Positions 11,686-64,000 of a stretch of DNA of 64,000 bases are shown here, in pieces. The stretch's first letter is position 1. Every line of letters starts with the position of its first letter. Origin of the DNA: Yuukianura sp. NJ FZ-2021. Lineage: Eukaryota. The translations under genes and the position numbers were made by a program. The DNA lies in contig CM102289.1 of assembly GCA_046563655.1 (NCBI GenBank), forward strand, positions 3,038,001 through 3,102,000, in the 5' to 3' direction. The notes below the pieces were generated by a model, which saw nothing but the letters and a program-made list of their open reading frames with translations, made no database searches and was not told where the DNA came from.

Positions 11686-12195
11686 TATGCAACATAAAAT
11701 TCCGTAGCCATATAGCAACACAGTTTTTGAAACAAAAATATGAATGTTTTGTCCGGCTTGGTTTAAAAAGATATTAATAAAATTACGTAATAAAATATTA
11801 CCCAATATTACTAACAACAGTAAACATAAATATGATATGCTTACTGTTGTCTGTATGCCCATAGCGTAATATTTTTGAAGAGTTTTTATTTACAAGACGC
11901 TTCAAATATTTTGTTCAATTCAGATTTATCTTTTCTAAGAGTTGTTTAATTTTTCCCAATGTCATGATAAGATTTCTATTTAGTTCTTCAGAAGGCAATA
12001 CACATCTCACAAGGTCATATTTCATGCGTGACCTTGTAAGATCACCAAAAAGCATTTAGATTTCCTCAGTCGTGTGTACAAGATACGCCGTTCTACAGAA
12101 AACTAACATAAACAATAAATCGAGCTCCACTTGTTCCTCCTAACCACTCCAACCAGCCAGTCGCTTAAGTTTCACCAAATTCCGAATTTTGAAAA

Positions 12196-16693: not shown

Positions 16694-17265
16694 CTTATAA
16701 AGTTTCACGAAACGTGATTGTCAAAAGAAACACAGAATAAAATTCCTAGAAGAGGGAACCAAGATTATCTACGTTTTACCCAAGGAAGGCTGTCTGTCAC
16801 ACCTACATTTACTTAAACCGATTAACAATATCAAATCTTTGAATTGGCTAAAAGTTAAACCATAACAAACTGTTAAAGACGTTTATCCCTCCCAAGTTGC
16901 CGGCATCAACCGTGCCTCCAGCTTCCAGACAGAACCACACTTTCTCTGAACTCTGCTATCAGCTGATTGCAATTTTGCACGTGGTGTGGTTGACGTACAC
17001 CAACCGCGTACTCGTTGTGTATACCTCTACCGCATTACGGAACAGGTACCTGCTGCCTTGCGGTAATTGTTTCTCTGCTGTATTCGGTTGGACGCTACAC
17101 TAAACCTCGGAATCCTCTGACAGATTTGGTTTCGGTAAAAGGTAACGAACGAACGCGGATTTAATTTCGTGGTTTTAATACGTTTTGTCCAAATTCCGGG
17201 CTCCATAATTTGTTTTTGTGTTTGTTAAACAGGATTCGAGTGCTTTGGATTCAGCTGCTGCGAAG

Positions 17266-27177: not shown

Positions 27178-30100
27178 TTAGGGATATTGATGCGTAAAGT
27201 TTACGTTGTACATTGTTCCTTCAAAAGATTCCGCGCTGACATTCTCCAGAACATCGTCCATGAAGCTATCCGTCGCCATTGGCCAAGAAGACAACGAATA
27301 AAACGTAGGTTTGTTGTATTCAGCTTCAACGCGTTCAGCATTATGAAAAATTTCTTCAGTAGAGCTGACACGATTCCAAGGATGTAAGTCTAAGTGAGGA
27401 ATGGCTTCTGAGTCTGCACAAGATGCTCGCAGATTTCTGCAATCGAAACAAACAAAAATACGAACCGCTAGAATTTAAAATTTTATTTAAAAAAAATTAC
27501 CTCTGGAGTTGCGGAGCAAGAAAAACTACAGGTTGAATGGAAGTAATGGAATCACTCGTATCACAAATGACTCGAGCAAGCGTTGTATTGCGAATGGCTT
27601 GGAGTTGACTTGAACTAAATTGTCCAGCATTTTCATACCAAAATCGATCTCCTCTGCGCAAGTTTCTAAATGTTTGACCAATTATGCAAGCAAATGTTTT
27701 TCCAACAAGGCCGCCTCGAACCGAAGGTTCAAGCATTCCGCCTGGAAACAAATCCACGTCCCACGGATTCTCGTATAGTTTCGATAACGAATCAACTTTA
27801 GCTGTAGAATTCAAAATCAAACACTCAATTAAACTAAATTAATTGCAAGCATTTTAAGAAGTAAACGTTAGTTCATACATCGATTGAGTCCAGTTGCTTC
27901 TTCAAAGTCGTCCCAAGTGACGATGGGGCCATTCCGTTTGAGTGGTTTCAAGAGTCCACATGCTTCGCGCCATTTTAGATAAGGAGCCAAGCCATGGTCT
28001 CTCCCACTAGAAAAAACGTTTTCATTAAGCCAGCAAAAGCTACTTTATAATGTCATCTTGTTTGTCTGTCCGTCCGCCCGCGGCATTTATTATATCACAT
28101 GGCGCTAGGGTTCTACGACTATACAAAAGCAATATATTGCTTTTTGCTTATGTACTACGGGTATCCATAGTGTACTAGGTCAAAGGTCAACGGGTCTTTC
28201 GCTACTTATATACAACCGGTTTATTTCATTCTAAAATAAATTTTGGGCTTGTTCAAAAATACTCACCGCTGGATGTTGATGGCTGCCAAGTCAAGACCTT
28301 TGTGCGCATGGGATTGGAACAAATGATTTGTCAATTCAGTTGTAATGAATTCGTTTCGTTCTTGAGATCGTTGTGAAACGAGTCCTAGCGTGATCCTGTC
28401 GATTTCCCCCAATTTATGTAGGTTAGTAGGTGTCATAAACTCCAAACTTAAATTGACTCCTATGTAACATCAACAAAAAAATTAAAAAAAAAACTTTATT
28501 TTAGAATCTCCTTTAATTTTTTGTAAAGTTTGCTTACGATATGGCAGTTCCGTGTGACCTTCGTCCAAGCGTGGTAGCCTTGACTCAACCAAGGAATGTC
28601 CAAAACGAAACGCAGCAGAACCAAAGGAATTTGGAATTGACGCGTCAACTTTTGAATTGTAGTCATTGTAGTAGCCCGTTCGAAGCACTCTGAGGCCAAA
28701 AGTCTGTTGGAAATAAACCAAACGTGTCAATTAAACATTAAGCTTAAGAAATATTAAAAATTATAATGATAAATGATATAATTAACCTTGGCAGCATTAG
28801 GTCCTAGCACCAGTGGCAAAAATTCTCGGAATGTTATGTGCTGCAGTTGAGCAATCACAATTTTTCTGGTTTCCTGGAATACATTTTCCTGCAAGTAGAA
28901 ACACGAAGACAGTAAATTCATAATTTTAATAAAATTCATAAACTTATTTTTTTTAAATTAATTATTAATTAATATGTTATTGTTTATAAAATATTGTTTA
29001 CCTCGCTCCAATGGGGATTCATGAATTCCAGCTTCTGAGCAATGGTGTTGTGCTGGCGTAACCAAATCGTATGCATCGCAGCAAGACCTGGATGCTCGTT
29101 TACGCGCATGTCTCCCGCTCTGAAACAAAAGAGCCTTGGAGAAGTAACTCGGCATTCTCCATGTTCGGATCGCTGGAGGCGTGGCAACAAAGGCTTCTGA
29201 TTGGAAAACTTGTGATACTTGAGCTTCCCACTGCGGAACAGTCGCAGACTTTGCTGCTCTTCCTCCGTTGAGCCATAAATCATGCTTCCATCTAGCCACG
29301 ATGTGAGCTAGAAAGGCGAGATCAAACAATTAAATACTGACGACTAGTTAAATAATTGAGAGTGTTTTGGTTTTTCTAACTTGGTTCAATTGTTCCCTGG
29401 GACCAAAGCCACAGTCCGGACGAGGGCTGGGTGCACTTCTCACGAACTCCATGCAGTCAGTGCTTCCATTGAAATGAGGATCGTCCAGTGGAACTACAAT
29501 TGGCAAGCAGTCAGGGTGGCTTTCAGAAACGTTGCAGCACTTGGGAACGGAATTGTTGAAAGCTCTTGTCTGCGCAGCGAGGGTCAAATCATGATCCAGA
29601 AACTGTCCCCACCTAAAACAGTAATTAATCCAGTATAGTTTTTAATTAATTATTAATATCCACAACTCCAGAATGTCTTTGTTACTGCATGATCATAAGG
29701 GTATGCACTGCAGACGCCTTTGGAACGCCGTTCTCACGGTGGATACTCGTCGAAATCCTGCGGGCAGATGGAAGATCGTCTCCAGTCACAGATTTACGAA
29801 CTGTTGAAATACCTGTATGATGAAAATGCCATCATGAGTCGAAATATATTATAAATTGTATCAAAAAAAAATGTAAATAAATACATGCTAAATATTAAAT
29901 GTATTTAATATTTTGAACAATACCGTCATCATATTCTTGAGGAAGGTAACGCGCAAATGGCTGGAAGCTAGAGCCTCTGCTCGGATGATCTAAATTGTTG
30001 CACGTTCCGTCAGCCGTGCGATAAAACTGGGCAGTATCGTTACACTCTGATACCTTTACCCTGTAGTAAAAATACTAAAATGTTAAAATGGCGATTCCTA

Positions 30101-31391: not shown

Positions 31392-34300
31392 TTACGGAGG
31401 AGGTGCAACCTGATCCTCCAGCCAGGACTTGATTGGAATGTAAAATTTGCTCATCCAAGTCCGGTTGTCATCCACTACTTGGAGAATTGCAGCAACAGTT
31501 TGAGGATCCAGCTCGAACCGTCCATCTTCGGCAAGCTTGCGGATCTAAACAGTTTCAGAAATCCAAAACTGAAGAAATTCAATTTATATTCTTCAAACTT
31601 AGGAACGCCAAACCATACCTGCTCTTGTTCATGTTGAGCATGAAAGTAGGGGCTCAGCAATTTCAAAGTTTCTTCAAGTTTCTTTTCTTTTTTGTAAAGT
31701 TTGATCATTCTCTCGGGCTTTTGGCACAAAAATTTAAATAAATTTTTGCGTCCGGATGGAAACGTTGCCACTTTTCGAATAAATCCATCTGACTCCTCTG
31801 CTGAAAAGTGGTCCGTATCAAGCGCAAGTGTCAGCATTCTAAAAAAAAGTTTTTAAAGTATGATTACTACTACTTTTTTGCATATTAATCTCTAAACTTG
31901 CGAACCTGCTAATTTTTGAACTGTCAGTTGAACATGCGAGAGAGTTAAGCAAAAGTGTTTTCTGCCTTCCAGTTTCCATGACGTACTTTTCTTGGACAAA
32001 TTCCCAAATAGTGTTGTCCGTGTCAAGTCGAACAGCAGTACAGTACACGGTGCTTTGAATATCCACTGGAATCCTAAACATTTACTTCAATTAATAAAAA
32101 GTTGTCCAAAATTATGAAAAAATATTTGCTTTTTACTTGTTTTTGGACGGATCAGACATCCATTGTCGAAACAATTTCAGAGCATACTGCTCACAATCTT
32201 TATCTTTCAAGGTACACGCCCAAGCCAGCAGAAAAGATCGAAAGTTGACCCGAATTCCTTTTTCGGCTTCAGGCTGCTCAAATCCAATCAAGTTTAGCAC
32301 AGCGTTTAGTTTAGGAGCCAAGTAATCCTATAGACGAATAGTAATGCAATTAATTATTACAAAATTACATCAAAAATAATTTCTTCAACATATTGTTATA
32401 TCAACAACTAAATCCTCAACTAATAACTTACACTCAAGCTCTGTTGCGCCGGTGTAGCCGAGAGTAATGACATGGTACGCTTCAAATTTGTGTACACAGT
32501 TATCCACACGTTGTACGAATCCTCTTTGTGTAGATACGTTGTGAGCCTGAGTGAACTAATTATGTCAACGTGATCTAAAACAAAAATTAAATGACATAAA
32601 ATTTCAAAATTTGACTACAGTATAGTACCTCTTGTGGAAACTCCTCTGATTGGGCCTTCTCATCCTACTCCTCCCATGGTCACCGTAAAACTTCTAGTAA
32701 TGTGTAAAACTCTTACGTAGAGTTGAGCTTTGACAATGTCTCTTCTCGCCTTCCCTCCCGTAGTTGGAAGTTGGCGGTATAAGAGGAGGGAGAAATAGGG
32801 ATAGCGTGGTTTCCACAAGAGGTCCTATACTGTAGCAAGAGCCGATTTGAAAATTTTCTGTGTTAAAATTTTTTGAAAATTATTTTAAATCAAATATTTT
32901 TACTCAAAAAGGCAAAGTTGAAGTAATCGTCCAGAAGTTGGCTTCGTGCATTTGGGCTAATACGCAATGGATCGTCTTCCAACTGCTTTTGAATTTTGCT
33001 CAAAACGTTTGAGTCGTAGAAAACTCGGAAGTAACCAATGGCGTCTGGGTTCACAATAAACCAATCTAGTGTGTCTATTCCGCTTTTTTCAAGCGAATTC
33101 GTGTTAGACGGTATCCAGAATTTAAAATTTTGGCGCTCAGCTCCAGCTGTTTGAATTGTAATCGGAATTGGCCATGTCGTCTCTTCAATTTCACGTCTAT
33201 CCCGCAAGTATTTTGGTTTTACAAATGTCTCCTGAAAATAATTTTTGAGATTTGCAATATAATGTAATGCATAATAGGAAGCGCTTTAAATTGAATTTCG
33301 AATAACAACCTGTGTGAGGGTAATGGCCGTAGAGTTTAAAATTTCAACGCGAACTAATGGGAAACCTTTTTTGAGCGTCCAGCTTTCCATGATAGATGAA
33401 AGCGATTCGGCTTTAGAAATCGAAGCAACACGATCTTCCCGCGCTTGAGCTTCCAGGGCAGCAAATAAGTCTTCTTGATGTACATTCCCAAATGATCTGC
33501 AACGTAAATACAAATTTTTGCGTTTGTAAATTTTATAATTCAAATATTTAAATATGTTCATAGAAATGAGAAAATCCAGTTTCATGTTGTTTTTCTCACT
33601 GCTGCTTTAGATAATTCCAAAGTCCTTTGACAAATGTTTCTTCGCCCAAGAATTCTCTCAGCATGCGCAGAAGAGATGCGCCCTAGACCAAAATTAGGAA
33701 CATTTTATTACAATGATTTAAAATAAAAGTTTTTTTTAGTAAAAACTCACCTTGTTGTATGTGATTTTGGAGAATCTTGCTGTCGTATCACTGTCATTAG
33801 CAATTGGATGCGCTTGTGAGCTTTGATCATATTGCATAGCTGATTGCATCGTTTGAGATACAAAGAGCGTCCACGGCTCAAATTCTGGACAAGCAGCGTC
33901 CTCGCCAATATTCTCAACAAATGCGGCAAATCCTTCGTTGAGCCACAATTGTGACCAGGATTTGCAAGTGACCAAGTCCCCAAACCATTGATGACCTTTA
34001 AAAAAAACAAATTGGCACATATTTTTAAATATATATATTTAGACAATTTGTAAATGCTAACTGCTCACCTAGTTCATGTGCAATGACAGAGCACACTCGA
34101 TTACGCTCCGCTTCCGTTGATACTCCGTCAAAGTATAGCAAGTATTTTTCTCTGTATTACACAAAAATATTTAGCTGCAATTTTGCATAATATATTAATA
34201 ATTTATTCTAAAATACAATTATGTTATACAACACGTATCAAACCTGTATGTATTCAGTCCATAGTTTTCCATTGCACCCGCCTCAAAATGTGGGATAGCC

Positions 34301-35737
34301 GCGGAATCCATTTTGGGCAAAGGGTACTTCATACCAAAATACTGTTCGTAGAAATTTAAAATTTTGGCGCCAGTTTCAGCTCCGAAGGCTCCGCCTCCCT
34401 TTTGAATGTAATGCTCAGGAGCCCAAACCTAGAAAACCAATTTAATTTTAACACAAAGTGTTAAATGCGTATGTACATTTCTTTAAGTCAAATCGTTTTT
34501 AAACTTCTTTCTTCGTTTTTACCTTCACAGACTTCCCACCAAAAAGTTTTGAATCGGCCGCTGCACTTTGAAACTTTGAAATGACTACAGCTACCAAATA
34601 TGTAGACATCTTCACAGTAGGTTTGAAGCGATCCCAGTACCAACCCTGGAGCCCTGCACTGAAACGATAAGAATTTCAAAATGCAATAACTTAATATAAG
34701 TTATAATAATTCGAAAATCATAAATTCGCAGCAGTGATACATATAAAAAGCAGCGGACAGGGAAAATTCTAAATTTTTTGTTACATTGGAGTTGATTCGC
34801 GTAAATCCATATTTGAAATGGAGTTGTACTCTTCCCGCCTTCCAACGCTTAGTTCAAATACAGCTTTCAGGTCTGGTTCATCGAAGGACGGAAATAACTG
34901 ACGCGCTCCTTGTGGCTCAAAATGTGTCACCACGAGATACCTAGCAGGAGAAAAAAGCCCGCAAACTTTAACTTTTAAATTTCTCGACTGTTTTCCATTT
35001 TGTGGCATAATGTTATACTCTGTTTCATTCTTCGTTGGATTGGTGTAGTTACTCAAGTAAAGACCGTCGAGACGATCTCTAAATACGAGTGCAATGTATT
35101 CCATGTAAATTTCATAAGTGGCGCCAAAATTTAAAGGTGTTTTAGTAATGATGCGAATTCTTCCGTCCTGCATGAAATCCTGAGACTCGATTTCAATTTC
35201 TGTCGTTTGCCCTTTCGTTGTGACCTAAATGACATACATTTTAAAATTCAATTTTTTTGGAAATGGCTTTACAAACTCAAATTCACTCCACATTTTTTGA
35301 AACAATGTTGTTGCTTGATAAATGTTGTAAATATGTTGTACCTTTGTAGCATTTGAGTAGAATGTAATATATTTGGCATTAAGGTAAATTGTCTTTGTGT
35401 CAGATACGCAGTCTACTGCTATTTTAACTGACCCCGGAATTGTAAACCTCTCATGCTTATTCTCTTTGGGGTCAAAAAGCGGTCTGATTTGAATTTCATA
35501 AAATGTAGGAAGTAGAGGTCGTGGAGCCGGCGCACGATGCAGGAGTCCATATGGTTCAATTCCTTCCAGTTTCTTTTCAAAACCTCTGCGTTCCATAAAA
35601 AAGTCATGATCGTCGAATGGTGCTCCTAAAAATGGCGGGGAATGGATTTTTCCTGAAATAAAAATCGGCAACACACCAATGCACAGGAAACCTCCTATGA
35701 AAAGTGGTTTTAAAAAATGAAGTAGTGTTTCAAACAT
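31392..35737 (-). CDS. Aminopeptidase N (M1 zinc metallopeptidase), multi-exon
   Basis: N-terminal hydrophobic anchor; 'THFEPQGARQLFPSFDEPDLKAVF'; 'KMSTYL'; GAMEN; HELGH...WLNEGFA (HExxH-x18-E); 'YNK|GAS'; ERAP1-like C-terminus ending WLEDQVAPPP*. Confidence 0.93.
32618..32832. mobile_element. Tc1/mariner-type MITE, 215 bp, in an aminopeptidase N intron
   Basis: TIRs CAGTATAGTACCTCTTGTGGAAAC / GTTTCCACAAGAGGTCCTATACTG (24 bp, 1 mismatch), flanked by TA on both sides (32616-32617 and 32833-32834). Confidence 0.88.
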
Positions 35738-36793
35738 TTTCTCAGCAAAAAGTGAAAAACTGAGAGCGACAACGGAGTTTCAAAAACTGAACCGATATGG
35801 AATTTTTATGACACGGTTCAGTCCGTTTCAATTTTTTTTTAGAAACCCTGAAGGCATTTCAAATTCTATTTTAAACTTTGGATTCTGAAAACAATGAAAA
35901 CTTTAAGGTGATGTTAAAAACCGTCCCTCTCCGTTTTTAAAAGGTCGACTTTTTAAAAAGTATTTGAACCTCATGAATGCATGTTTTTGAGCATCAAATT
36001 ATTCTAGACTTTATAAAACATCAATACAACTTTGTTCGAAAATAAGTAAATTCTATTCGAGCACGTTGAAGGAACAACGAAAAAGTTACAAAAACAGGAA
36101 GATAAAAAACGTAAAAACTGAAGCATGCTAAAATACGAACTTATAAGGACATGACTAGTACAAAAACGCTTGCAAATATTTTAACTAACGCTATACGGAA
36201 TATATTATTTAACATGATTTCACAACATGATTACAAAACCGTTGTTGAAATAATGTCATTTGAACAAGTCATATGTCTGTTTAATGATGTTATACTGCGT
36301 ATTGACCTTTAGAGGTCAAACGAATGCACCGAAACACTTCATTACATCAATTCGTCAATTGAGAGTATACAACAATCATCAGTTTGAACAACTTTGTTTA
36401 ATTCCTGTAAGTGCCAACGAGCTAGATAATCAATCACTTCGTAAGTGATTAATTATCACAATATATTGTCACATGAAATAGGAAAACCCCATCAACATAT
36501 TACGATACGATCAGCCTCTATTTTGGTGATCTCATCGTTCATGCTAAACAAAAAGCGAGTTGATCACAAATTGACACTTCAAATTGAAAACGTTTCTGGA
36601 ATTAAATTATTTCCTGTAATGCAAACAATTCAGTTCAATTGAATTGCTTAACAAACCGAAGGAGAATACATTTCGCCAAAAAAAGTTCAGATCGACTTTG
36701 AACGAATTCACAGAACAATATAAAAACAGCCCAAGTTTTTGTTGAAGTAAATTCAGTATTCACAGCGTCTTTGGATTTTATAAAATCTCCAAA

Positions 36794-37732
36794 ATGGAGG
36801 AGCTGAGCTGCAAGTTCATTGTGGCATTACTAATTTTTGGCGGGTCAATTTCAAAAAGTTTCCAGAACGAAGAAACAAACGCCGTAGATCCCTGGTCTGT
36901 TTTTGCAGACGAAAACTCTGATTTCTGCTACAACGACTCCCTGCCTTGCGGCCCATCCAAATGGGGCGGGTACTGTAACCAAGGAAACAATGGACGACAG
37001 TCACCAGTAGACCTGAGCAGTGCCAACGCCATCTTCAATTTCTTCTACCGTATGCGCATGAGCAAGACCTACGACAAGGCCATCTTCGATTCCTTCTCTA
37101 TCCAGAACGACGGTCATTCTATCCAGATCAGCCTTCCTGTAAATCCGACTTCTGAGGATTTGCGTGTCTCCTACGATTTCTTAGGATTGGAGCCTTATAA
37201 ATTTTCAAAGCTTCACTTTCATTGGGGGAGGAACAAAGAGTATGGCGCAGAGCACTTGCGCAAAGGCAATCCACCATTTGTTATGGAAGTTCATCTTGTT
37301 CACTATGCTTTGAAGTATGGATCAATTGAAGAAGCGATGAAAGCTACGTCTGACCCCGAAGCTCTAACTGTTCTTGGAATGTTTGTGAATGTTTGTGACG
37401 ACAGTACACATACGACTCCATTCGCTCAGATCATCACAGATGTAGCGAACGCTGGAAAATACCCGTCAAACGACATAGCGCTTGTGAAGAAGCAATTCTC
37501 ATTGAGTCGTTTCATTCCCAAGCGTCGTAGTCACTATAGTTACCAAGGGTCTCTAACAACACCGGAATGCGCTGAAATTGTTAAATGGACCGTGTTTCAT
37601 CAACCCATTTGTATTTCAAAACAGGAAATTGATGTTTTTCGGAATATTTTCATGAAAAACGGAGAAGTAATGGACACAAACCATCGACCTCTACAAAAAC
37701 TTGGAAACAGACGAATTGCGTACTATAGCTAA
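36794..37732 (+). CDS. Secreted alpha-carbonic anhydrase, intronless, 312 aa
   Basis: Signal peptide; QSPVD; NDGHS (proton-shuttle His); Zn ligands in LHFHWG and EVHLVH; GAEH; YQGSLTTPEC; NHRPLQ. TATA-like tataaa at about 36719. Confidence 0.95.
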   Translation: MEELSCKFIVALLIFGGSISKSFQNEETNAVDPWSVFADENSDFCYNDSLPCGPSKWGGYCNQGNNGRQSPVDLSSANAIFNFFYRMRMSKTYDKAIFDSFSIQNDGHSIQISLPVNPTSEDLRVSYDFLGLEPYKFSKLHFHWGRNKEYGAEHLRKGNPPFVMEVHLVHYALKYGSIEEAMKATSDPEALTVLGMFVNVCDDSTHTTPFAQIITDVANAGKYPSNDIALVKKQFSLSRFIPKRRSHYSYQGSLTTPECAEIVKWTVFHQPICISKQEIDVFRNIFMKNGEVMDTNHRPLQKLGNRRIAYYS

Positions 37733-38312
37733 TCATTACATTGTTACAAATAACTATTTACGTAATTTAACTATATATATAAATCGCTCTAAATTTTCAG
37801 TTTTTGAATTTCTAATAAATTAAAATAAATAGTATGCATCGATCGGAATTCGAGTATTGATTCCACTAAAAGGCATAGTATTAAAGTTATAGAAGACTGC
37901 ATCGTCGCAGCATGCTTGTAAAATTCTAAACAGTTTTCCCTGTATTTTTTATTTAATAAATAAATGTGTAAAATTAACTACACCATAAAAGCGGTTTTAG
38001 GATGCGCAGGCGCGATTCTATTTTTCATTTAGTGTAATTTGCAGGAAAAGGTAGATGTTTGCGTAAACGTCAATTTCGCGTGAAATCTACGAACCTGCTG
38101 GAGCAAGTAATTTGCCGTTTCAATGACAAAAGAGGTCATAATTTTCAATAATTTCCAGAATTGCACTTGACAAATATTGTTCGTGGCTTTCCGCCCAAGG
38201 TCAATCAGAAGTATTTCGCAAACATGTCTATAAATTATATGTATAATATATTGTAATGTAATTTAAGGTAGTTGCTGTCCGCTGTAAAACTTAGTTTTAG
38301 TTCAGAAAAAAA

Positions 38313-38821
38313 ATGATAAACATAGAAATTGGTCCAATGCGTCCAGTTTTACTTTTGCTAACTGTTTGTCTTCCGGTTTTTTGTGAAATTAATCTAAAGA
38401 ATTTGAACAAAGTAGATTTTCTAGAAAGGCAGAAGAAAAACCAGCAAGAAACTGGGATTTGTTCGTGGTATGGAGCAGAGGGTTAGCAAATTTCAAACCA
38501 AGTTTAAATTTTTTTAAAACCTAAGAAATTTTGAACTTGATATTGCGCTTCTAAGGTGAAATTCCGCAAGGCTGGCCAACAGCCAGTGGAGAGGGGTTTG
38601 ATCGTTATGCAATGGCGGCTGCGCACAAAACGTTAGCGTTTGGAACCAAAATTCGAGTAAGGAATCCTATCAATAAGAAAACTGTTGTCGTGCGGATCAA
38701 TGACCGAGGACCATATACCAAAGGACGAATTTTAGATTTGACTTATGCCGCTTTTGGAAAGATTGAAAACAGAGACAAAGGCCTCATCCACAACTGCACC
38801 TACAGAATAGTTCCGACATAA
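38313..38821 (+). CDS. rlpA: RlpA-like (rare lipoprotein A, DPBB) lytic transglycosylase of bacterial type with a eukaryotic signal peptide and intron
   Basis: Exon 1 38313-38481, intron 38482-38555 (gttag...taag), exon 2 38556-38821, in frame. Protein ...ETGICSWYGAEGEIPQGWPTASGEGFDRYAMAAAHKTLAFGTKIRVRNPINKKTVVVRINDRGPYTKGRILDLTYAAF matches the RlpA consensus. TATA at about 38229; AATAAA at about 38855. Confidence 0.92.
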
Positions 38822-39189
38822 TACAATTAACTTTTGGTGATAAATTAACCAAAAAATAAAATAAAACTTGAACATTTTCAAACGTCGAATGAATTTTTCA
38901 AAACCATTTCAGCGTCTGTTCAAAAATTTAGAAAATTGTATTAAAATAGATGTCCAAAGTCCAAATATCAAAAATGTGAAAACTTATCATCGTTACCATG
39001 ATCCTGAGCGTCATGACGTAACTTCCATAACAAGGTTTAACTGTCATTTTTCATTCAGTAAAAAGGAATCACATAATGGATTATATCTAGGATTGTAGTA
39101 AGTCTCATCTGCCATGCGACATGCGTGGTGAAAAATGTCAAAATGACATTGGGAATTGTGTAGACAATTAGGTCTTAGGATTTAAAATA

Positions 39190-40649
39190 TTAGAAGGAAC
39201 TGGCTAGAGCAGCAACTTCCTCGTCACCTAATAGATTCCCTAAATTACAGTTCAGGAAACGACGACAAGTGGAAGCTTGGCATGTACAAGGAACTAAAAT
39301 ATCGGAAGTGAATTTGTAGTCGAACGTCAGTTCCTCGCCAATTTCAATATCACGAGTTGTGAAAATGAGACAACGGTTCTTGCCATGAATCTCAATCGTT
39401 TCTGCTTTACAGTTTGGCTAACAGAGGAAAACATCATTAAAAACATTCAGTCATAAGTTATGTGGATTGTGGTACAACTTGATAGATATGGGTTCGAACT
39501 TACCTCACAGGAATTATTCATGTACTTTGAGCAGTTGCCATACGCCGTTGCATCCCACAGGAGTTTACCAATTTTCATTATAAATGGCTTTACAGCGTGA
39601 TTCTCGCAGCTATATTGCCGCCTGGCGGCTTGGATGTTGGTGATGACCTGTAATAACCAATGGTAAGTTTTAGACCAAATCCTTAAATTATGTTAAACCA
39701 GTCGTAACAACAAAGCAGAGCGTTGTTTACCTTAAGATATAATAAAAGATTCTCTATACCTCTCCGGTGTACTCGATCACAAGTTCTCCTTTTGGTAGAA
39801 ACGTCCCAGTGAACAAGCCCAACCCATCAATCGGGGAGTCCAGAACTACCAGACGTCTTCCCATATCGTAAGACGTCAAGTCCACTTCAGGACATCTGTC
39901 TATGAGGGTCATAAACCTATAAACAATCGAAGGTTACTATAATTCTGATTGACAAAAAATTAATCCACTGCTTCGCATATGAATTTTGAATTAAAGAATT
40001 AAAAGCTGGCGAAATTAATGATGTGATTCACCGAATCTGAGTAAACACTCACTGATCATTGTTGCCGTCATCTTCTTCGCCACTATCATCTGTCTCCATA
40101 ATACCATGCTTCATCTCCAAGTGGTCCCGTAACGAATTCAAATGCTTAAATCCTTTGAAGCATTGTGGACACGCAAACCAATCCGTGTCTGTAGTAGGTA
40201 GACAATTGTGGACACGAACGAGGCCGCCACGACTATCAATCACACTGGTAACCTCAATTGAACTTGACGTCGTGCTTGGCCCTTCGCTAGCCTGTCGAGT
40301 CGCTTCCAGTATGTCATCTGTACTCGTACTCTGCTATGAACAAACATTAATGCATATTGTACGTACATACATAGTGATTTTTAGCATAAAAAAAGCTTGT
40401 TACTCGGGTTTACCGAATCCGATCCGAGTCCGACATCAATATCGTCGTCGATTTCCATTTCCCTTGATGAAGCCTTGACCAACCGTTTCAGCGTTTCAGA
40501 ATTAGAAACGCTAAAGCTAAAAACAAATTAATTGAGTGTTCATAATTTAGTAAATAAGAAGCCAACGTTAAAAAAACAATTTCTCCTCTGCTCTTCTCCG
40601 CCTGCCTCCACCAGAATTTACTTGCAAAATTCGAGTGATTCATTGCCAT
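39190..40649 (-). CDS. Compact C2H2 zinc finger + SET + post-SET protein (SET1/trithorax-like SET domain), about 6 exons
   Basis: The exon with CPQCFKGFKHLNSLRDHLEMKH splices (CA|gtgagt...tag|G) in frame to SPIDGLGLF...VIEYTGE|VI...DATAYGNCSKYMNNSCE|PNC...RDIEIGEELTFDY...VPCTCQASTCRRFLN. The N-terminal exons and the start at 40649 are less certain. Confidence 0.82.
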
Positions 40650-45687: not shown

Positions 45688-48600
45688 GATAACCTACAAA
45701 TTTCATTGGTAAAGCATTTTGGTAAGGTAAACTCCCAAAATTTAGAATATTCTGTATCCGTGTCAACAACGTGCTTAGAAGCTTTAACTTTCTCCCGATA
45801 AAGAAAAAATTTGAATGTTATCTTCAACAGAAAATTTTCACACGGATTCAGCCGAAAAACCTGACAAGCAAGTTTGATAAACAACAAATTTCGTTGGTAA
45901 CGCTTCAGAAAGGACTTGAACACCCGAAATTAAAATTGTTCTGTATTTGTGTTAACAACGTGCTTAGAAGCTTTCACTTTCTCCCGATAAAGAAAAAATT
46001 TGAATGTTATCTTCAACAGAAAATTTTCACACGGATTCAGCCGAAAAACCTGACAAGCAAGTTTGATAAACAACAAATTTCGTTGGTAACGCTTCAGACA
46101 GGACTTGAACACCCGAAATTAAAATTTTTCTGTATTTATGTTAACAATGTGCTTAGAAGCTTTCACTTTCTCCGGATAAAGAAAAAATTTGAATGTTATC
46201 TTCAACAGAAAATTTTCAGACGGATTCACCCGAAAAACCTGACAAGCAAGTTTGATAAACAACAAATTTCGTTGGTAACGCTTCAGAAAGGACTTGAACA
46301 CCCGAAATTAAATTTTTTCTGTATTTGTGTTAACAACGTGCTTAGAAGCTTTCACTTTCTCCCGATAAAGAAAAAATTTGAATGTTATCTTCAACAGAAA
46401 ATTTTCACACGGATTCAGCCGAAAAACCTGACAAGCAAGTTTGATAAACAACAAATTTCGTTGGTAACGCTTCAGACAGGACTTGAACACCCGAAATTAA
46501 AATTTTTCTGTATTTATGTTAACAATGTGCTTAGAAGCTTTCACTTTCTCCGGATAAAGAAAAAATTTGAATGTTATCTTCAACAGAAAATTTTCACACG
46601 GATTCAGCCGAAAAACCTGACAAGCAAGTTTGATAAACAACAAATTTCGTTGGTAACGCTTCAGACAGGACTTGAACACCCGAAATTAAAATTTTTTTGT
46701 ATTTATGTTAACAATGTGCTTAGAAGCTTTCACTTTCTCCGGATAAAGAAAAAATTTGAATGTTATCTTCAACAGAAAATTTTCAGACGGATTCAGCCGA
46801 AAAACCTGACAAGCAAGTTTGATAAACAACAAATTTCGTTGGTAACGCTTCAGACAGGACTTGAACACCCGAAATTAAAATTTTTCTGTATTTATGTTAA
46901 CAATGTGCTTAGAAGCTTTCACTTTCTCCGGATAAAGAAAAAATTTGAATGTTATCTTCAACAGAAAATTTTCAGACGGATTCAGCCGAAAAACCTGACA
47001 AGCAAGTTTGATAAACAACAAATTTCGTTGGTAACGCTTCAGACAGGACTTGAACACCCGAAATTAAAATTTTTCTGTATTTATGTTAACAATGTGCTTA
47101 GAAGCTTTCACTTTCTCCGGATAAAGAAAAAATTTGAATGTTATCTTCAACAGAAAATTTTCAGACGGATTCAGCCGAAAAACCTGACAAGCAAGTTTGA
47201 TAAACAACAAATTTCGTTGGTAACGCTTCAGACAGGACTTGAACACCCGAAATTAAAATTTTTCTGTATTTATGTTAACAATGTGCTTAGAAGCTTTCAC
47301 TTTCTCCGGATAAAGAAAAAATTTGAATGTTATCTTCAACAGAAAATTTTCAGACGGATTCAGCCGAAAAACCTGACAAGCAAGTTTGATAAACAACAAA
47401 TTTCGTTGGTAACGCTTCAGACAGGACTTGAACACCCGAAATTAAAATTTTTCTGTATTTATGTTAACAACGTGCTTAGAAGCTTTCACTTTCTCCCGAT
47501 AAAGAAAAAATTTGAATGTTATCTTCAACAGAAAATTTTCACACGGATTCAGCCGAAAAACCTGACAAGCAAGTTTGATAAACAACAAATTTCGTTGGTA
47601 ACGCTTCAGACAGGACTTGAACACCCGAAATTAAAATTTTTCTGTATTTATGTTAACAATGTGCTTAGAAGCTTTCACTTTCTCCGGATAAAGAAAAAAT
47701 TTGAATGTTATCTTCAACAGAAAATTTTCAGACGGATTCAGCCGAAAAACCTGACAAGCGAGTTTGATAAACAACAAATTTCGTTGGTAACGCTTCAGAC
47801 AGGACTTGAACACCCGAAATTAAAATTTTTCTGTATTTATGTTAACAATGTGCTTAGAAGCTTTCACTTTCTCCGGATAAAGAAAAAATTTGAATGTTAT
47901 CTTCAACAGAAAATTTTCAGACGGATTCAGCCGAAAAACCTGGCAAGCAAGTTTGATAAACAACAAATTTCGTTGGTAACGCTTCAGACAGGACTTGAAC
48001 ACCCGAAATTAAAATTTTTCTGTATTTATGTTAACAACGTGCTTAGAAGCTTTCACTTTCTCCCGATAAAGAAAAAATTTGAATGTTATCTTCAACAGAA
48101 AATTTTCACACGGATTCAGCCGAAAAACCTGACAAGCAAGTTTGATAAACAACAAATTTCGTTGGTAACGCTTCAGAAAGGACTTGAACACCCGAAATTA
48201 AAATTTTTCTGTATTTGTGCGTTAACAACGTGCTTAGAAGCTTTCACTTTCTCCCGATAAAGAAAAAATTTGAATGTTATCTTCAACAGAAAATTTTCAC
48301 ACGGATTCAGCCGAAAAACCTGACAAGCAAGTTTGATAAACAACAAATTTCGTTGGTAACGCTTCAGACAGGACTTGAACACCCGAAATTAAAATTTTTC
48401 TGTATTTATGTTAACAATGTGCTTAGAAGCTTTCACTTTCTCCGGATAAAGAAAAAATTTGAATGTTATCTTCAACAGAAAATTTTCAGACGGATTCAGC
48501 CGAAAAACCTGACAAGCAAGTTTGATAAACAACAAATTTCGTTGGTAACGCTTCAGAAAGGACTTGAACACCCGAAATTAAAATTTTTCTGTATTTGTGT

Positions 48601-51600
48601 TAACAACGTGCTTAGAAGCTTTCACTTTCTCTCGATAAAGAAAAATTTGAATGTTATCTTCAACAGAAAATTTTCACACGGATTCAGCCGAAAAACCTGA
48701 CAAGCAAGTTTGATAAACAACAAATTTCGTTGGTAACGCTTCAGACAGGACTTGAACACCCGAAATTAAAATTTTTCTGTATTTATGTTAACAATGTGCT
48801 TAGAAGCTTTCACTTTCTCCGGATAAAGAAAAAATTTGAATGTTATCTTCAACAGAAAATTTTCACACGGATTCAGCCGAAAAACCTGACAAGCAAGTTT
48901 GATAAACAACAAATTTCGTTGGTAACGCTTCAGACAGGACTTGAACACCCGAAATTAAAATTTTTCTGTATTTATGTTAACAATGTGCTTAGAAGCTTTC
49001 ACTTTCTCCGGATAAAGAAAAAATTTGAATGTTATCTTCAACAGAAAATTTTCAGACGGATTCAGCCGAAAAACCTGACAAGCAAGTTTGATAAACAACA
49101 AATTTCGTTGGTAACGCTTCAGACAGGACTTGAACACCCGAAATTAAAATTTTTCTGTATTTATGTTAACAATGTGCTTAGAAGCTTTCACTTTCTCCGG
49201 ATAAAGAAAAAATTTGAATGTTATCTTCAACAGAAAATTTTCAGACGGATTCAGCCGAAAAACCTGACAAGCGAGTTTGATAAACAACAAATTTCGTTGG
49301 TAACGCTTCAGACAGGACTTGAACACCCGAAATTAAAATTTTTCTGTATTTATGTTAACAATGTGCTTAGAAGCTTTCACTTTCTCCGGATAAAGAAAAA
49401 ATTTGAATGTTATCTTCAACAGAAAATTTTCAGACGGATTCAGCCGAAAAACCTGACAAGCAAGTTTGATAAACAACAAATTTCGTTGGTAACGCTTCAG
49501 ACAGGACTTGAACACCCGAAATTAAAATTTTTCTGTATTTATGTTAACAATGTGCTTAGAAGCTTTCACTTTCTCCGGATAAAGAAAAAATTTGAATGTT
49601 ATCTTCAACAGAAAATTTTCAGACGGATTCAGCCGAAAAACCTGACAAGCGAAGTTTGATAAACAACAAATTTCGTTGGTAACGCTTCAGACAGGACTTG
49701 AACACCCGAAATTAAAATTTTTCTGTATTTATGTTAACAATGTGCTTAGAAGCTTTCACTTTCTCCGGATAAAGAAAAAATTTGAATGTTATCTTCAACA
49801 GAAAATTTTCAGACGGATTCAGCCGAAAAACCTGACAAGCGAGTTTGATAAACAACAAATTTCGTTGGTAACGCTTCAGAAAGGACTTGAACACCCGAAA
49901 TTAAATTTTTTCTGTATTTGTGTTAACAACGTGCTTAGAAGCTTTCACTTTCTCCCGATAAAGAAAAAATTTGAATGTTATCTTCAACAGAAAATTTTCA
50001 CACGGATTCAGCCGAAAAACCTGACAAGCAAGTTTGATAAACAACAAATTTCGTTGGTAACGCTTCAGACAGGACTTGAACACCCGAAATTAAAATTTTT
50101 CTGTATTTATGTTAACAATGTGCTTAGAAGCTTTCACTTTCTCCGGATAAAGAAAAAATTTGAATGTTATCTTCAACAGAAAATTTTCACACGGATTCAG
50201 CCGAAAAACCTGACAAGCAAGTTTGATAAACAACAAATTTCGTTGGTAACGCTTCAGACAGGACTTGAACACCCGAAATTAAAATTTTTCTGTATTTATG
50301 TTAACAATGTGCTTAGAAGCTTTCACTTTCTCCGGATAAAGAAAAAATTTGAATGTTATCTTCAACAGAAAATTTTCAGACGGATTCAGCCGAAAAACCT
50401 GACAAGCAAGTTTGATAAACAACAAATTTCGTTGGTAACGCTTCAGACAGGACTTGAACACCCGAAATTAAAATTTTTCTGTATTTATGTTAACAATGTG
50501 CTTAGAAGCTTTCACTTTCTCCGGATAAAGAAAAAATTTGAATGTTATCTTCAACAGAAAATTTTCAGACGGATTCAGCCGAAAAACCTGACAAGCGAGT
50601 TTGATAAACAACAAATTTCGTTGGTAACGCTTCAGACAGGACTTGAACACCCGAAATTAAAATTTTTCTGTATTTATGTTAACAATGTGCTTAGAAGCTT
50701 TCACTTTCTCCGGATAAAGAAAAAATTTGAATGTTATCTTCAACAGAAAATTTTCAGACGGATTCAGCCGAAAAACCTGACAAGCAAGTTTGATAAACAA
50801 CAAATTTCGTTGGTAACGCTTCAGACAGGACTTGAACACCCGAAATTAAAATTTTTCTGTATTTATGTTAACAATGTGCTTAGAAGCTTTCACTTTCTCC
50901 GGATAAAGAAAAAATTTGAATGTTATCTTCAACAGAAAATTTTCAGACGGATTCAGCCGAAAAACCTGACAAGCGAGTTTGATAAACAACAAATTTCGTT
51001 GGTAACGCTTCAGACAGGACTTGAACACCCGAAATTAAAATTTTTCTGTATTTATGTTAACAATGTGCTTAGAAGCTTTCACTTTCTCCGGATAAAGAAA
51101 AAATTTGAATGTTATCTTCAACAGAAAATTTTCAGACGGATTCAGCCGAAAAACCTGACAAGCGAGTTTGATAAACAACAAATTTCGTTGGTAACGCTTC
51201 AGACAGGACTTGAACACCCGAAATTAAAATTTTTCTGTATTTATGTTAACAATGTGCTTAGAAGCTTTCACTTTCTCCGGATAAAGAAAAAATTTGAATG
51301 TTATCTTCAACAGAAAATTTTCAGACGGATTCACCCGAAAAACCTGACAAGCAAGTTTGATAAACAACAAATTTCGTTGGTAACGCTTCAGAAAGGACTT
51401 GAACACCCGAAATTAAATTTTTTCTGTATTTGTGTTAACAACGTGCTTAGAAGCTTTCACTTTCTCCCGATAAAGAAAAAATTTGAATGTTATCTTCAAC
51501 AGAAAATTTTCACACGGATTCAGCCGAAAAACCTGACAAGCAAGTTTGATAAACAACAAATTTCGTTGGTAACGCTTCAGACAGGACTTGAACACCCGAA

Positions 51601-63600: not shown

Positions 63601-64000
63601 CGGATTCAGCCGAGAAACCTGACAAGCAAGTTTGATAAACAACAAATTTCGTTGGTAACGCTTCAGACAGGACTTGAACACCCGAAATTAAAATTTTTCT
63701 GTATTTATGTTAACAATGTGCTTAGAAGCTTTCACTTTCTCCGGATAAAGAAAAAATTTGAATGTTATCTTCAACAGAAAATTTTCAGACGGATTCAGCC
63801 GAAAAACCTGACAAGCAAGTTTGATAAACAACAAATTTCGTTGGTAACGCTTCAGACAGGACTTGAACACCCGAAATTAAAATTTTTCTGTATTTATGTT
63901 AACAACGTGCTTAGAAGCTTTCACTTTCTCCCGATAAAGAAAAAATTTGAACGTTATCTTCAACAGAAAATTTTCACACGGATTCAGCCGAAAAACCTGA
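45688..64000. repeat. 189-bp tandem satellite array, about 96 head-to-tail copies, running off the window end; higher-order repeats
   Basis: Monomer aagctttcactttctcc(c/g)gataaag...gtgcttag recurs every 189 bp (ORF track spacing 189). Only about 8-10 recurrent variable sites; one HindIII (AAGCTT) and one HpaI (GTTAAC) site per monomer; degenerate partial monomer at 45688-45790. Confidence 0.99.

What the first reader, a model, noticed from the sequence alone, without database searches (positions are those of the whole stretch)
38313..38821. Domesticated bacterial RlpA lytic transglycosylase: candidate horizontally acquired antibacterial effector
Seen: a near-textbook RlpA catalytic domain (SWYG...TASGE.FD...AAHKTL.FGT...VVVRINDRGPY..GRILDL) carrying a spliceosomal intron, TATA box and poly(A) signal, between ordinary animal genes, so contamination is unlikely. 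The putative catalytic Asp in 'ILDLT' is kept. The bacterial SPOR domain is absent; there is a hydrophobic signal, a short pro-like segment ending in basic RQKK, a strongly cationic mature domain and two Cys (GICSW, HNCTY) that could form a new disulfide. Established: RlpA cleaves peptide-denuded peptidoglycan, and laterally acquired rlpA genes are known in aphids. Inference: an independent domestication for immunity, bacterivory or symbiont control, possibly working with host amidase PGRPs that strip stem peptides.
Basis: partly seen in the sequence, partly recalled or inferred. Interest (0 to 1): 0.85.

Follow-up and report, generated by a model that had tools for sequence, protein, structure and literature searches.

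The report
Bacterial-origin RlpA gene in soil arthropod
An animal genome carries an intron-bearing gene for a small secreted bacterial-type cell-wall-cutting enzyme (RlpA), which is real but belongs to a family already listed as horizontally acquired in springtails.

Summary
Window 38313-38821 (+) encodes a two-exon, 144-aa secreted protein. Exon 2 is an RlpA-type DPBB domain (Pfam 1.7e-20; NCBIfam rlpA 82.5 bits, cut-off 82.15). A 74-nt GT..AG intron restores a junction identical to the Orchesella cincta homologue. The gene lies between intron-split animal genes, and DNA contigs from two studies bridge it to its flanks.

It is not a new domestication. It sits in a clade (bootstrap 98 / SH-aLRT 88) that holds every named springtail (3 species), sciarid gnat (2) and one oribatid mite sequence. 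Two O. cincta RlpA genes were already listed as confirmed HGT in a 2016 supplement.

The clade shares a 3-residue EIP insertion with small, SPOR-less secreted RlpA proteins of Archangiaceae myxobacteria and Lysobacter. So SPOR was probably never acquired.

The catalytic Asp is kept (D117; Ser in inactive E. coli RlpA). A Cys pair specific to the eukaryote clade (46/46 and 45/46, against 0/51 in the bacterial relatives) supports the proposed disulfide.

Most likely function: a secreted lytic transglycosylase used for digestion or defence against bacteria (about 0.55).

Not tested here: expression, enzyme activity and independence from aphid rlpA.

Interest is moderate: a new member of a known kind.

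The parts
38229..38234 (+). TATAAA, candidate TATA box 84 nt upstream of the ATG
   Evidence: Read directly. The hexamer occurs 26 times in 64 kb, so this is weak evidence on its own.
38313..38481 (+). Exon 1: start codon, signal peptide, linker and first beta-strand (ETGICSWYGAEG); ends in phase 1
   Evidence: ORF and sequence. Splicing arithmetic. No Pfam or NCBIfam hit on its own.
38313..38384 (+). Predicted signal peptide (residues 1-24, hydrophobic core PVLLLLTVCLPVF); a second Met at residue 9 aligns with the start of O. cincta P0001
   Evidence: Sequence. Compared with the N-termini of homologues. No signal-peptide predictor was available, so this is inference.
38385..38447 (+). 21-residue basic linker (EINLK...RQKKNQQ) between the signal peptide and the DPBB domain
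   Evidence: Not present in relatives. A propeptide role is unsupported.
38460..38462 (+). Cys50 (GICSWYG), first half of the Cys pair specific to the eukaryote clade
   Evidence: Cys in 46/46 eukaryote-clade rows, 0/51 bacterial EIP-clade rows and 1/22 generic RlpA rows.
38482..38555 (+). Spliceosomal intron, 74 nt, GT..AG, GC 26%
   Evidence: The junction restores the sequence that is continuous in homologues. No RNA data were available.
38556..38821 (+). Exon 2: the rest of the RlpA-type DPBB domain plus the TAA stop
   Evidence: Pfam DPBB_1 E 1.7e-20. TIGR00413 at 82.5 bits. PDB 4avr PA4485 at E 1.5e-17.
38558..38566 (+). EIP: 3-residue insertion that marks the subfamily
   Evidence: Present in 44/46 eukaryote-clade and 51/51 bacterial EIP-clade rows. 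It is a gap in 22/22 generic RlpA rows and absent from 80/80 best GTDB species-representative loci.
38735..38737 (+). Asp117 (GRILDLT), predicted catalytic aspartate
   Evidence: Aligns to the Ser of E. coli RlpA (VISLS). PMC9712689 states that E. coli RlpA is inactive because its catalytic Asp (D168 in P. aeruginosa) is replaced by Ser. Invariant in all three groups.
38795..38797 (+). Cys137 (HNCTY), second half of the Cys pair specific to the eukaryote clade, in the last beta-strand
   Evidence: Cys in 45/46 eukaryote-clade rows (1 gap); Val in 50/51 bacterial EIP-clade rows.
38855..38865 (+). Two overlapping AATAAA poly(A) signals, 34-39 nt after the stop
   Evidence: The hexamer occurs 1.05 times per kb in the window, so this is weak evidence.
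36794..37732 (+). Upstream neighbour: alpha-carbonic anhydrase (animal type)
   Evidence: Pfam Carb_anhydrase E 5.6e-58. The best named relatives are animals, at 36% identity or less.
39190..39417 (-). Downstream neighbour: last exon of a SET-domain gene, convergent with RlpA
   Evidence: Pfam SET E 1.7e-07.

Best explanation
This is a functional, horizontally derived animal gene. It encodes a small secreted single-domain RlpA-type lytic transglycosylase.

Shown here:
- It is integrated between animal genes and carries a spliceosomal intron.
- It belongs to an old, multi-copy eukaryote clade (springtails, sciarid gnats, at least one oribatid mite). The closest bacterial relatives of that clade are small SPOR-less secreted RlpA proteins, sharing the EIP insertion, from Archangiaceae myxobacteria and Lysobacter.
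- The family has been under long-term purifying selection.

Inferred:
- After signal-peptide cleavage the roughly 100-120-aa DPBB domain is released into the gut lumen or another extracellular space. A disulfide specific to the eukaryote clade (C50-C137) would tie the first and last beta-strands.
- It cuts the MurNAc-GlcNAc backbone of bacterial peptidoglycan through the single catalytic Asp117, giving 1,6-anhydro-MurNAc ends as P. aeruginosa RlpA does. It probably acts best on glycan strands whose stem peptides an amidase has removed.
- Its use is lysis or digestion of ingested or invading bacteria by a soil detritivore.
For: Domain and family: Pfam DPBB_1 at 73.5 bits and TIGR00413 rlpA at 82.5 bits against a cut-off of 82.15, from exon 2 alone.

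Catalytic Asp: kept, and mapped through the E. coli Ser substitution.

Fold: the AlphaFold model of O. cincta homologue P0001 (72% identical over exon 2) has pLDDT 91.8. It superposes on P. aeruginosa PA4485 (4avr) at TM 0.93, rmsd 1.3 A.

Integration: X2 contig record 9 (7,938 nt) spans 36500-40500. X4 record 23, from a second study, spans 37824-39984 and bridges RlpA to the SET exon. GC is uniform across the region.

Constraint:
- pN is 0.15-0.36 against saturated pS of 0.75-0.91 in 6 pairwise comparisons with metagenome relatives.
- In run X1 there are 0 differences across 38117-38995, against 21 in the 728 flanking bases. All 21 are accounted for in the listed table. Fisher P = 5e-8.

Clade: 44 rows including all 12 springtail, 2 sciarid and 1 oribatid sequences and the window, UFBoot 98 / SH-aLRT 88.

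Offensive use of such domains elsewhere: the bacterial relatives are secreted proteins of predatory, bacteriolytic soil bacteria (names; their lifestyle is from my own knowledge). An RlpA-like domain also sits in a cyanophage baseplate hub (8kea).

Literature (passages seen): the RlpA DPBB domain cleaves denuded peptidoglycan (PMC9116674). An O. cincta RlpA HGT gene is tied to an EST clone from a cadmium SSH library (supplement of PMC4987106), which suggests that a homologue is transcribed.
Against: No enzyme assay exists for any member of this subfamily, eukaryotic or bacterial, in what I could read.

The DPBB fold also carries non-lytic proteins. The same model matches Streptomyces papain inhibitor, expansins, kiwellins, loosenin and cerato-platanins at TM 0.6-0.7.

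E. coli RlpA shows that an intact fold can be catalytically silent.

The Glu of the TASGE motif is kept here but in only 21/46 eukaryote-clade rows. So part of the family may have drifted from catalysis, or that residue is not essential.

A preference for denuded glycan would need a partner amidase. None was seen among the window ORFs scanned.

The host taxon itself is not pinned down. The neighbouring carbonic anhydrase has no close named relative.
Confidence: 0.55

Rival explanations
1. The protein is a non-lytic, expansin- or loosenin-like wall-loosening or carbohydrate-binding protein. It would help digest fungal or plant cell walls (chitin, glucan, cellulose) rather than bacterial peptidoglycan.
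For: The fold search returns bacterial, fungal and plant expansins and a fungal loosenin at TM 0.58-0.66. NCBIfam gives a sub-threshold expansin_EXLX1 hit (33.3 bits). The O. cincta paper (passages) reports that its foreign genes are mostly for carbohydrate metabolism and cell-wall degradation, in a fungus- and litter-feeding animal.
Against: The RlpA models score far higher than the expansin model (82.5-85.8 against 33.3 bits; the expansin cut-off of 100 is not met). There is no second expansin (CBM63-like) domain. The closest solved relative is an RlpA-type protein at 46% identity. The RlpA catalytic Asp and the INDRGP core are invariant.
Confidence: 0.17
2. The protein is a catalytically irrelevant binding protein or inhibitor. 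It could be a peptidoglycan- or glycan-binding immune recognition factor, or a protease inhibitor like the DPBB Streptomyces papain inhibitor. In that case the fold serves only as a stable disulfide-bonded scaffold.
For: Streptomyces papain inhibitor is the third structural match (TM 0.65-0.68), and there is a weak NF041659 hit (18.9 bits). Authors of the aphid work argue that the DPBB domain of aphid RlpA may serve another function (PMC9116674, passage). The Glu of TASGE is variable in the family.
Against: NF041659 is far below its cut-off (18.9 against 150). The catalytic Asp is invariant in 46/46 eukaryote rows even though neighbouring motif residues vary, which points to selection on catalysis.
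Confidence: 0.12
3. The gene manages a resident symbiont, as proposed for aphid rlpA. It would be expressed in symbiont-housing or germline tissue to control a Wolbachia-like or gut symbiont cell wall.
For: There is a precedent in aphids. There rlpA is 154-fold enriched in bacteriocytes (PMC2662799, abstract and passages).
Against: The family is spread over free-living soil arthropods with different symbiont status, and has many paralogs per genome (at least 6 in O. dallaii and 3 in O. cincta). That fits digestion or defence better. No expression data exist here. Even for aphids, the authors doubt a role in symbiont peptidoglycan metabolism.
Confidence: 0.08
4. It is an artefact: bacterial contamination, a misassembly, or a dead, unexpressed relic.
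For: No transcript evidence could be obtained for this window.
Against: The intron is needed to complete the domain. Exon GC of 41% sits in a 37% GC animal context. Contigs from two studies bridge the gene to its neighbours. The frame is intact, with every conserved residue kept. pN is much smaller than pS, and there is no polymorphism across the gene against 2.9% in the flanks.
Confidence: 0.03

Closest known systems
RlpA-like HGT genes of the springtail Orchesella cincta (ODM88241.1 = P0001; Ocin01_18441/18442 in supplementary table of PMC4987106) and O. dallaii
   Same: Same eukaryote clade. 71-73% identity over exon 2. Same short layout of signal peptide plus DPBB, same EIP insertion and same N/C-terminal Cys pair. 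Already scored as confirmed HGT with best hit Cystobacter fuscus RlpA.
   Different: The window copy lacks the second Cys pair (TAC...PCG) that 32/46 clade members carry. It has a 21-residue basic linker and the highest pI of the 22 named or low-GC members. Its place inside the clade is unresolved (support 50-54), so orthology to any Orchesella copy is not shown. The intron position in the Orchesella genes could not be examined.
Small secreted RlpA-family proteins of Archangiaceae myxobacteria (Stigmatella, Cystobacter, Archangium, Melittangium, Vitiosangium) and Lysobacter
   Same: Same EIP insertion and DLTYGAF...N.D.G motifs. About 50-57% identity. 132-154 aa, with DPBB as the only Pfam domain and no SPOR. 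Part of the same 100/100-supported superclade.
   Different: They are bacterial genes on 64-71% GC contigs with bacterial signal peptides. Their Cys lie at other positions (C at -3 of SWYG, and in 'RC.DL' in 50/51). A strict sister relationship is not resolved by the tree. One clade of all 67 EIP-bearing rows is not rejected (AU p = 0.38), but it is not shown either.
Aphid RlpA1-5 (Acyrthosiphon pisum and other aphids)
   Same: A bacterial DPBB domain without SPOR in an arthropod genome, with a eukaryotic signal peptide, introns and a poly(A) signal (PMC2662799; PMC9116674).
   Different: Aphid proteins are 220-aa chimeras with knottin (ICK) modules and are bacteriocyte-enriched. The window protein has no Cys-rich module. 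The aphid best hit was a Bradyrhizobium RlpA at only E 9e-15, with origin unresolved. In the O. cincta table, the best metazoan score for its RlpA genes is about half the myxobacterial score (57.8 against 108 and 53.9 against 103 bits). No aphid protein is among the 120 best hits of the family profile.
Pseudomonas aeruginosa RlpA (PA4000) and PA4485 (PDB 4avr)
   Same: Same DPBB catalytic domain and the same catalytic Asp position. PA4485 is likewise a stand-alone DPBB protein.
   Different: Canonical RlpA is an outer-membrane lipoprotein with expansin-like and SPOR domains, acting at the septum of its own cell. The equivalog model NF007953 is not met (73.5 against 201 bits).
Canonical terpene synthases shared by Sciaridae, Collembola and Acariformes (PMC11665903)
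   Same: The same unusual triad of soil arthropod lineages carries a foreign gene family. Those authors propose transfer between arthropods (abstract and passages).
   Different: It is a different gene family and function. For RlpA, the direction and number of transfers were not tested.

Membership tests
RlpA family / DPBB_1 (Pfam PF03330, NCBIfam TIGR00413) | Sequence scores above the curated family cut-offs | tested here: met
   PF03330 at 73.5 bits against 28.8. TIGR00413 at 82.5 against 82.15 from exon 2 alone, which is marginal.
RlpA family / DPBB_1 (Pfam PF03330, NCBIfam TIGR00413) | Catalytic aspartate of the lytic transglycosylase domain (D168 of P. aeruginosa RlpA; Ser in inactive E. 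coli RlpA) | tested here: met
   Asp117 aligns with the E. coli Ser. The literature statement is in PMC9712689. Invariant in 119/119 aligned rows of three groups.
RlpA family / DPBB_1 (Pfam PF03330, NCBIfam TIGR00413) | Double-psi beta-barrel fold | tested here: inconclusive
   Met for homologue P0001: pLDDT 91.8, TM 0.93 to 4avr. The window's own spliced protein could not be handed to the fold tool.
RlpA family / DPBB_1 (Pfam PF03330, NCBIfam TIGR00413) | Lytic transglycosylase activity on (denuded) peptidoglycan | not testable with these tools
   Needs recombinant protein and a sacculus assay.
Canonical septal-ring lipoprotein RlpA (NCBIfam equivalog NF007953) | Equivalog score, lipoprotein signal and C-terminal SPOR domain | tested here: not met
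   73.5 bits against a cut-off of 201. The protein ends at the last DPBB strand, as all clade members do. No SPOR hit.
Eukaryote (soil-arthropod) EIP-type RlpA clade | EIP insertion after SWYGxxG | tested here: met
   Residues 58-60. 44/46 clade rows carry it and 0/22 generic RlpA rows do.
Eukaryote (soil-arthropod) EIP-type RlpA clade | Cys directly before SWYG, paired with Cys in the last strand | tested here: met
   C50 and C137. 46/46 and 45/46 in the clade; 0/51 in the bacterial EIP clade.
Eukaryote (soil-arthropod) EIP-type RlpA clade | Phylogenetic placement inside the clade | tested here: met
   44-row clade at UFBoot 98 / SH-aLRT 88 in the careful tree (85 rows, 112 columns). A 46-row clade at SH-aLRT 98 in the 129-row quick tree.
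Aphid knottin-RlpA chimeras | Knottin/ICK modules flanking the DPBB domain | tested here: not met
   The mature window protein has only 2 Cys and no extra module. Other clade members do carry Cys-rich N-terminal modules.
Aphid knottin-RlpA chimeras | Common descent with aphid rlpA | not tested
   No aphid sequence could be retrieved with the tools. Only indirect hints point to separate origins.
Bacterial expansin EXLX1 (NF041144) | Family cut-off and two-domain (DPBB + CBM63) architecture | tested here: not met
   33.3 bits against 100. Single domain.
Streptomyces papain inhibitor (NF041659) | Family cut-off | tested here: not met
   18.9 bits against 150. Fold resemblance only.

The most novel reading that the evidence does not exclude
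The EIP-type RlpA gene entered arthropods once, from a predatory soil bacterium related to Archangiaceae or Lysobacter, where the small secreted RlpA would be a prey-lysis weapon. It then moved between soil microarthropods (springtails, acariform mites, sciarid gnats), the same triad reported for canonical terpene synthases. On the way it picked up eukaryotic Cys-rich modules: a 'CWWxGCQP...RGC...CC' domain shared by Orchesella, Bradysia, Pseudolycoriella and Dinothrombium, and a knottin in another lineage, echoing aphid knottin-RlpA. That would mark a recurrent route of gene exchange among soil arthropods, and a shared secreted antibacterial or digestive enzyme family that no one has characterised.
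Probability: 0.3. Interest if true: 0.65.

Novelty: new member of a known kind. Interest (0 to 1): 0.4.

Why it matters
On its own the gene is one more copy of a foreign gene family already catalogued in a springtail genome, so it is not a surprise to specialists.

It gains value in three ways:
1. No member of this animal RlpA family, and none of the small SPOR-less RlpA proteins of myxobacteria and Lysobacter, appears to have a tested activity. The searches I ran found no such work.
2. The family's patchy spread over springtails, sciarid gnats and mites, with a shared eukaryotic Cys-rich module, could give a second, independent marker for gene exchange among soil arthropods.
3. A 100-aa, disulfide-stabilised, cationic lytic transglycosylase is an easy target for expression. 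It would show whether animals use lytic transglycosylases, rather than lysozymes, against bacteria.

Tried and rejected
- Expression: the look-up of sequencing runs listed 5 holders from 2 studies, none on record as RNA. No RNA holder listed, so splicing and expression stay untested. Read laying showed DNA contigs only and no joints.
- Whole genome: none is held for the window.
None of the 80 best loci carries the EIP insertion.
- The genome search with the L128 protein: 0 of 401 sampled Myxococcota and 0 of 401 sampled Actinomycetota genomes at E <= 1e-20. These are samples and no positive control rang, so the result is uninformative. The named myxobacterial and Lysobacter members came instead.
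- Aphid comparison: no aphid RlpA sequence could be obtained. None is in the best 18, 150 or 120 rows. The supplements of PMC9116674 held no sequence motifs in the 12 files searched; 2 of its 14 files were not searched. A joint tree was therefore left out.
- Host taxon: the neighbouring carbonic anhydrase gave only unnamed metagenome hits at 44-48% identity and named animals at 36% or less. 'Springtail' rests on the RlpA relatives alone and is not established.
- ESM Atlas: phage DPBB clusters at scores below 0.85 for P0057, and no usable hit for the Cys-rich module.
- Earlier notes of this scan: nothing by place, words or sequence.
- Sister group: the careful tree leaves the eukaryote clade, the myxobacteria/Lysobacter clade, P0003/P0135 and the actinomycete RlpA proteins as an unresolved set inside a 100/100 superclade.
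- Dinothrombium P0249: long branch (2.4). It falls just outside the 98/88 clade, in the 48-row node at 80/89.
- Oppiella P0220: left out of the trees because it is a partial two-domain protein without the insertion.
- dN/dS: synonymous sites are saturated, so only pN << pS can be stated.
- Papers not held or not searched: Jorgenson et al. 2014 is not held. Supplementary file 1 of PMC4987106 could not be searched.
Full report
**What is there.**
Window 38313-38821 (+) holds a two-exon gene.
- Exon 1 (38313-38481) encodes a hydrophobic N-terminus (MINIEIGPMRPVLLLLTVCLPVFC), a 21-residue basic linker and the first beta-strand ETGICSWYGAEG.
- A 74-nt GT..AG intron follows (38482-38555; GC 26% against 41% in the exons).
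- Exon 2 (38556-38818, TAA at 38819) encodes the rest of the domain.
- Unspliced, the frame ends at TAG 38484. Spliced, the product is 144 aa.
- The junction reads SWYGAEG|EIPQGWPTA, identical to the Orchesella cincta protein P0001 and continuous in bacterial relatives.
- Exon 2 alone hits Pfam DPBB_1 (E 1.7e-20), NCBIfam rlpA TIGR00413 (82.5 bits, cut-off 82.15) and the solved P. aeruginosa protein PA4485 (E 1.5e-17).
- TATAAA (38229) and AATAAA (38855, 38860) are present, but such hexamers are common in this AT-rich DNA.

**Context and assembly.**
No genome is held for the window. The neighbours are intron-split animal genes (64 of 86 ORFs of 90 aa or more were scanned): UGTs, P450s, a TPR gene, a GMC oxidoreductase, a haem peroxidase, an M1 aminopeptidase, an alpha-carbonic anhydrase directly upstream and a SET-domain exon directly downstream. 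GC is even across the region.

DNA contigs of public runs from two studies cover the locus. One 7,938-nt contig spans 36500-40500. A 2,168-nt contig from the second study spans 37824-39984. Contamination or misassembly is therefore very unlikely.

The host is an animal. Its carbonic anhydrase has no close named relative, so 'springtail' rests only on the RlpA relatives.

**The family.**
The first search gave O. cincta 'RlpA-like lipoprotein' at 71% identity, and O. dallaii is in the same 90% cluster. A profile of the close relatives (3,179 proteins at E <= 1e-10 among 8,000 candidates, best 120 listed) named these members:

| Group | Species (named entries) |
|---|---|
| Springtails | O. cincta (3), O. 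dallaii (6), Allacma fusca (3) |
| Sciarid gnats | Bradysia odoriphaga (on a 7.2-Mb contig), Pseudolycoriella hygida |
| Mites | Oppiella nova, Medioppia subpectinata, Dinothrombium tinctorium (short contigs) |
| Bacteria | Stigmatella, Melittangium, Archangium, Cystobacter, Vitiosangium (Archangiaceae), Lysobacter, one Sciscionella |

A pattern scan of metagenome contigs (104 stretches, 12 of them true homologues) added two sets:
- Seven low-GC (26-40%) eukaryote-like loci.
- Five high-GC (64-71%) bacterial loci with bacterial signal peptides.

**A marker and a tree.**
All these sequences share a 3-residue EIP insertion after SWYGxxG. It is present in 44/46 eukaryote-clade rows and 51/51 bacterial rows. 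It is absent from 22/22 generic RlpA rows and from the 80 best loci of species-representative genomes.

In the careful tree (85 rows, 112 columns):
- The window falls in a 44-row clade with all 12 springtail, both sciarid and the Medioppia sequences and the six low-GC loci used (UFBoot 98 / SH-aLRT 88).
- Dinothrombium, on a long branch, joins at the next node (80/89).
- The myxobacteria/Lysobacter clade has 100/98 support.
- Both lie, with actinomycete RlpA proteins and two unnamed EIP-bearing proteins, in a 100/100 superclade apart from generic RlpA. Inside it the order is unresolved.
- One clade of all 67 EIP-bearing rows is not rejected (AU p = 0.38; the group was named after seeing the tree).
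- The window's place inside the eukaryote clade is unsupported (50-54).

**Features derived in the eukaryote clade.**
- Main Cys pair: Cys directly before SWYG (46/46) and Cys in the last strand (45/46) are fixed. They are absent from the bacterial EIP clade (0/51), which instead has Cys in 'RC.DL' (50/51). In the model of P0001 both Cys lie in the first and last strands. No coordinates were available to measure a distance.
- Second Cys pair: it co-occurs perfectly in 32/46 rows. The window copy lacks it.
- SPOR: the bacterial relatives are 132-154 aa with DPBB as their only domain, so SPOR was probably never transferred.
- Introns: in 6 of 6 low-GC loci the DPBB exon starts just before the mature domain, and a candidate signal-peptide mini-exon lies 59-341 nt upstream. 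The window gene has its intron inside the domain instead. Intron positions therefore differ within the family. My scan could only find loci that are continuous at the window's intron site.
- N-terminal modules: several members carry a Cys-rich module 'CWWxGCQP..W..RGC...CC' with no Pfam match. These are O. dallaii x3, Bradysia, Pseudolycoriella, Dinothrombium and locus L118. One locus (L086) carries a knottin-like module.

**Selection.**
Against metagenome relatives, pN is 0.15-0.36 while pS is saturated at 0.75-0.91.

In run X1, all 21 differences from the window in 37799-39405 lie outside 38117-38995. That is 0 in 879 bases against 21 in 728 (Fisher P = 5e-8). The invariant stretch includes the intron, so this is not purely coding constraint.

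**How it most likely works.**
Asp117 aligns with the Ser of E. coli RlpA. PMC9712689 (passages) states that E. coli RlpA is inactive because the catalytic Asp (D168 in P. aeruginosa) is replaced by Ser. The Asp is invariant in all groups.

The homologue model is a DPBB barrel (pLDDT 91.8) that superposes on PA4485 at TM 0.93.

I therefore read the product as a secreted, disulfide-clamped, single-domain lytic transglycosylase that cuts bacterial glycan strands. Following PMC9116674, it would act best on strands stripped of peptides. It would be used by a soil animal for digestion of, or defence against, bacteria.

Two points fit an offensive use:
- The source family sits in predatory, bacteriolytic bacteria (lifestyle from my own knowledge).
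- An RlpA-like domain sits in a cyanophage baseplate hub (8kea).

Activity, partner amidase, tissue and induction are inferred, not shown. The fold also hosts expansins, loosenins, kiwellins and a protease inhibitor, which gives the rival readings. The high pI (9.7) is particular to this copy; the median of 22 eukaryote members is 6.8.

**Comparison with what is known.**
The supplement of the O. cincta genome paper lists Ocin01_18441 and Ocin01_18442 as confirmed HGT with best hit Cystobacter fuscus rare lipoprotein A. Their bit scores are 108 and 103 against 57.8 and 53.9 for the best metazoan. One is tied to a cadmium SSH clone. The supplement also lists an O. cincta-only RlpA ortholog group. 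The main text mentions only 'genes that break down peptidoglycan'.

Aphid rlpA (PMC2662799; PMC9116674) encodes 220-aa knottin-DPBB chimeras of unresolved bacterial origin. Nothing I could retrieve allowed a joint tree.

Full-text searches found no paper that treats RlpA in springtails, mites or sciarids. One Wolbachia paper (PMC7046167) holds the words together; I saw it only in the listing.

The triad Sciaridae, Collembola and Acariformes matches that of canonical terpene synthases (PMC11665903).

**Verdict.**
It is a new member of a known, catalogued but uncharacterised family.

Noticed in passing
window 45750-64000: A 189-bp satellite array of at least 96.6 copies at 98% match runs to the end of the window. 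Because 189 = 63 codons, it produces long open frames (up to 844 aa) and spurious Pfam hits (YidB, Znf_Tenuivirus, with no qualifying stretch).
   Followed up: partly
window 2566-35224: The neighbourhood holds detoxification and extracellular-enzyme genes, all split into exons: UGTs (2566-8751, -), P450s (10852-13563, +), a TPR protein (15420-16720, -), a GMC oxidoreductase (20394-21992, +), an animal haem peroxidase (27500-29641, -) and an M1 aminopeptidase (32893-35224, -).
   Followed up: no
P0057, P0207, P0209 (O. dallaii), P0178 (Bradysia), P0180 (Pseudolycoriella), P0249 (Dinothrombium); L118:1597-1735: A conserved Cys-rich N-terminal module 'CWW[ST]GCQP..W..RGC...CC' precedes the RlpA domain in a springtail, two sciarid gnats and a trombidiform mite. 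It lies on a separate upstream exon in one metagenome locus. It has no Pfam match and no usable Atlas hit. A shared eukaryotic module argues for common descent of these animal genes.
   Followed up: partly
L086:1173-1697 (-): A low-GC metagenome homologue carries a knottin-like N-terminal module (C-x6-C-x5-CC-x4-C-x10-C; sub-threshold Toxin_12 hit at E 0.034) fused to the RlpA domain. This architecture parallels the aphid knottin-RlpA chimeras.
   Followed up: partly
one search list; loci L081, L128, L146, L151, L152: The bacterial members of the EIP subfamily come almost only from predatory or bacteriolytic soil bacteria (Archangiaceae myxobacteria, Lysobacter). In L128 the gene sits next to a secreted M4-type metalloprotease ORF (HExxH). 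Some myxobacterial members add a DUF7910 domain (P0230, P0233-P0235).
   Followed up: no
window 38117-38995 versus flanks: One haplotype in run X1 has no difference across the whole gene, intron and UTR-like flanks included. The neighbouring 728 bases differ at 21 sites (2.9%). This suggests low diversity at the locus beyond coding constraint, possibly a sweep.
   Followed up: partly
eukaryote RlpA clade alignment: A second Cys pair (TA-C-GE and LP-C-GT) co-occurs perfectly in 32 of 46 clade members and is absent from the window copy. In the same clade the Glu of the TASGE motif is kept in only 21 of 46 rows, while the catalytic Asp is kept in all.
   Followed up: partly
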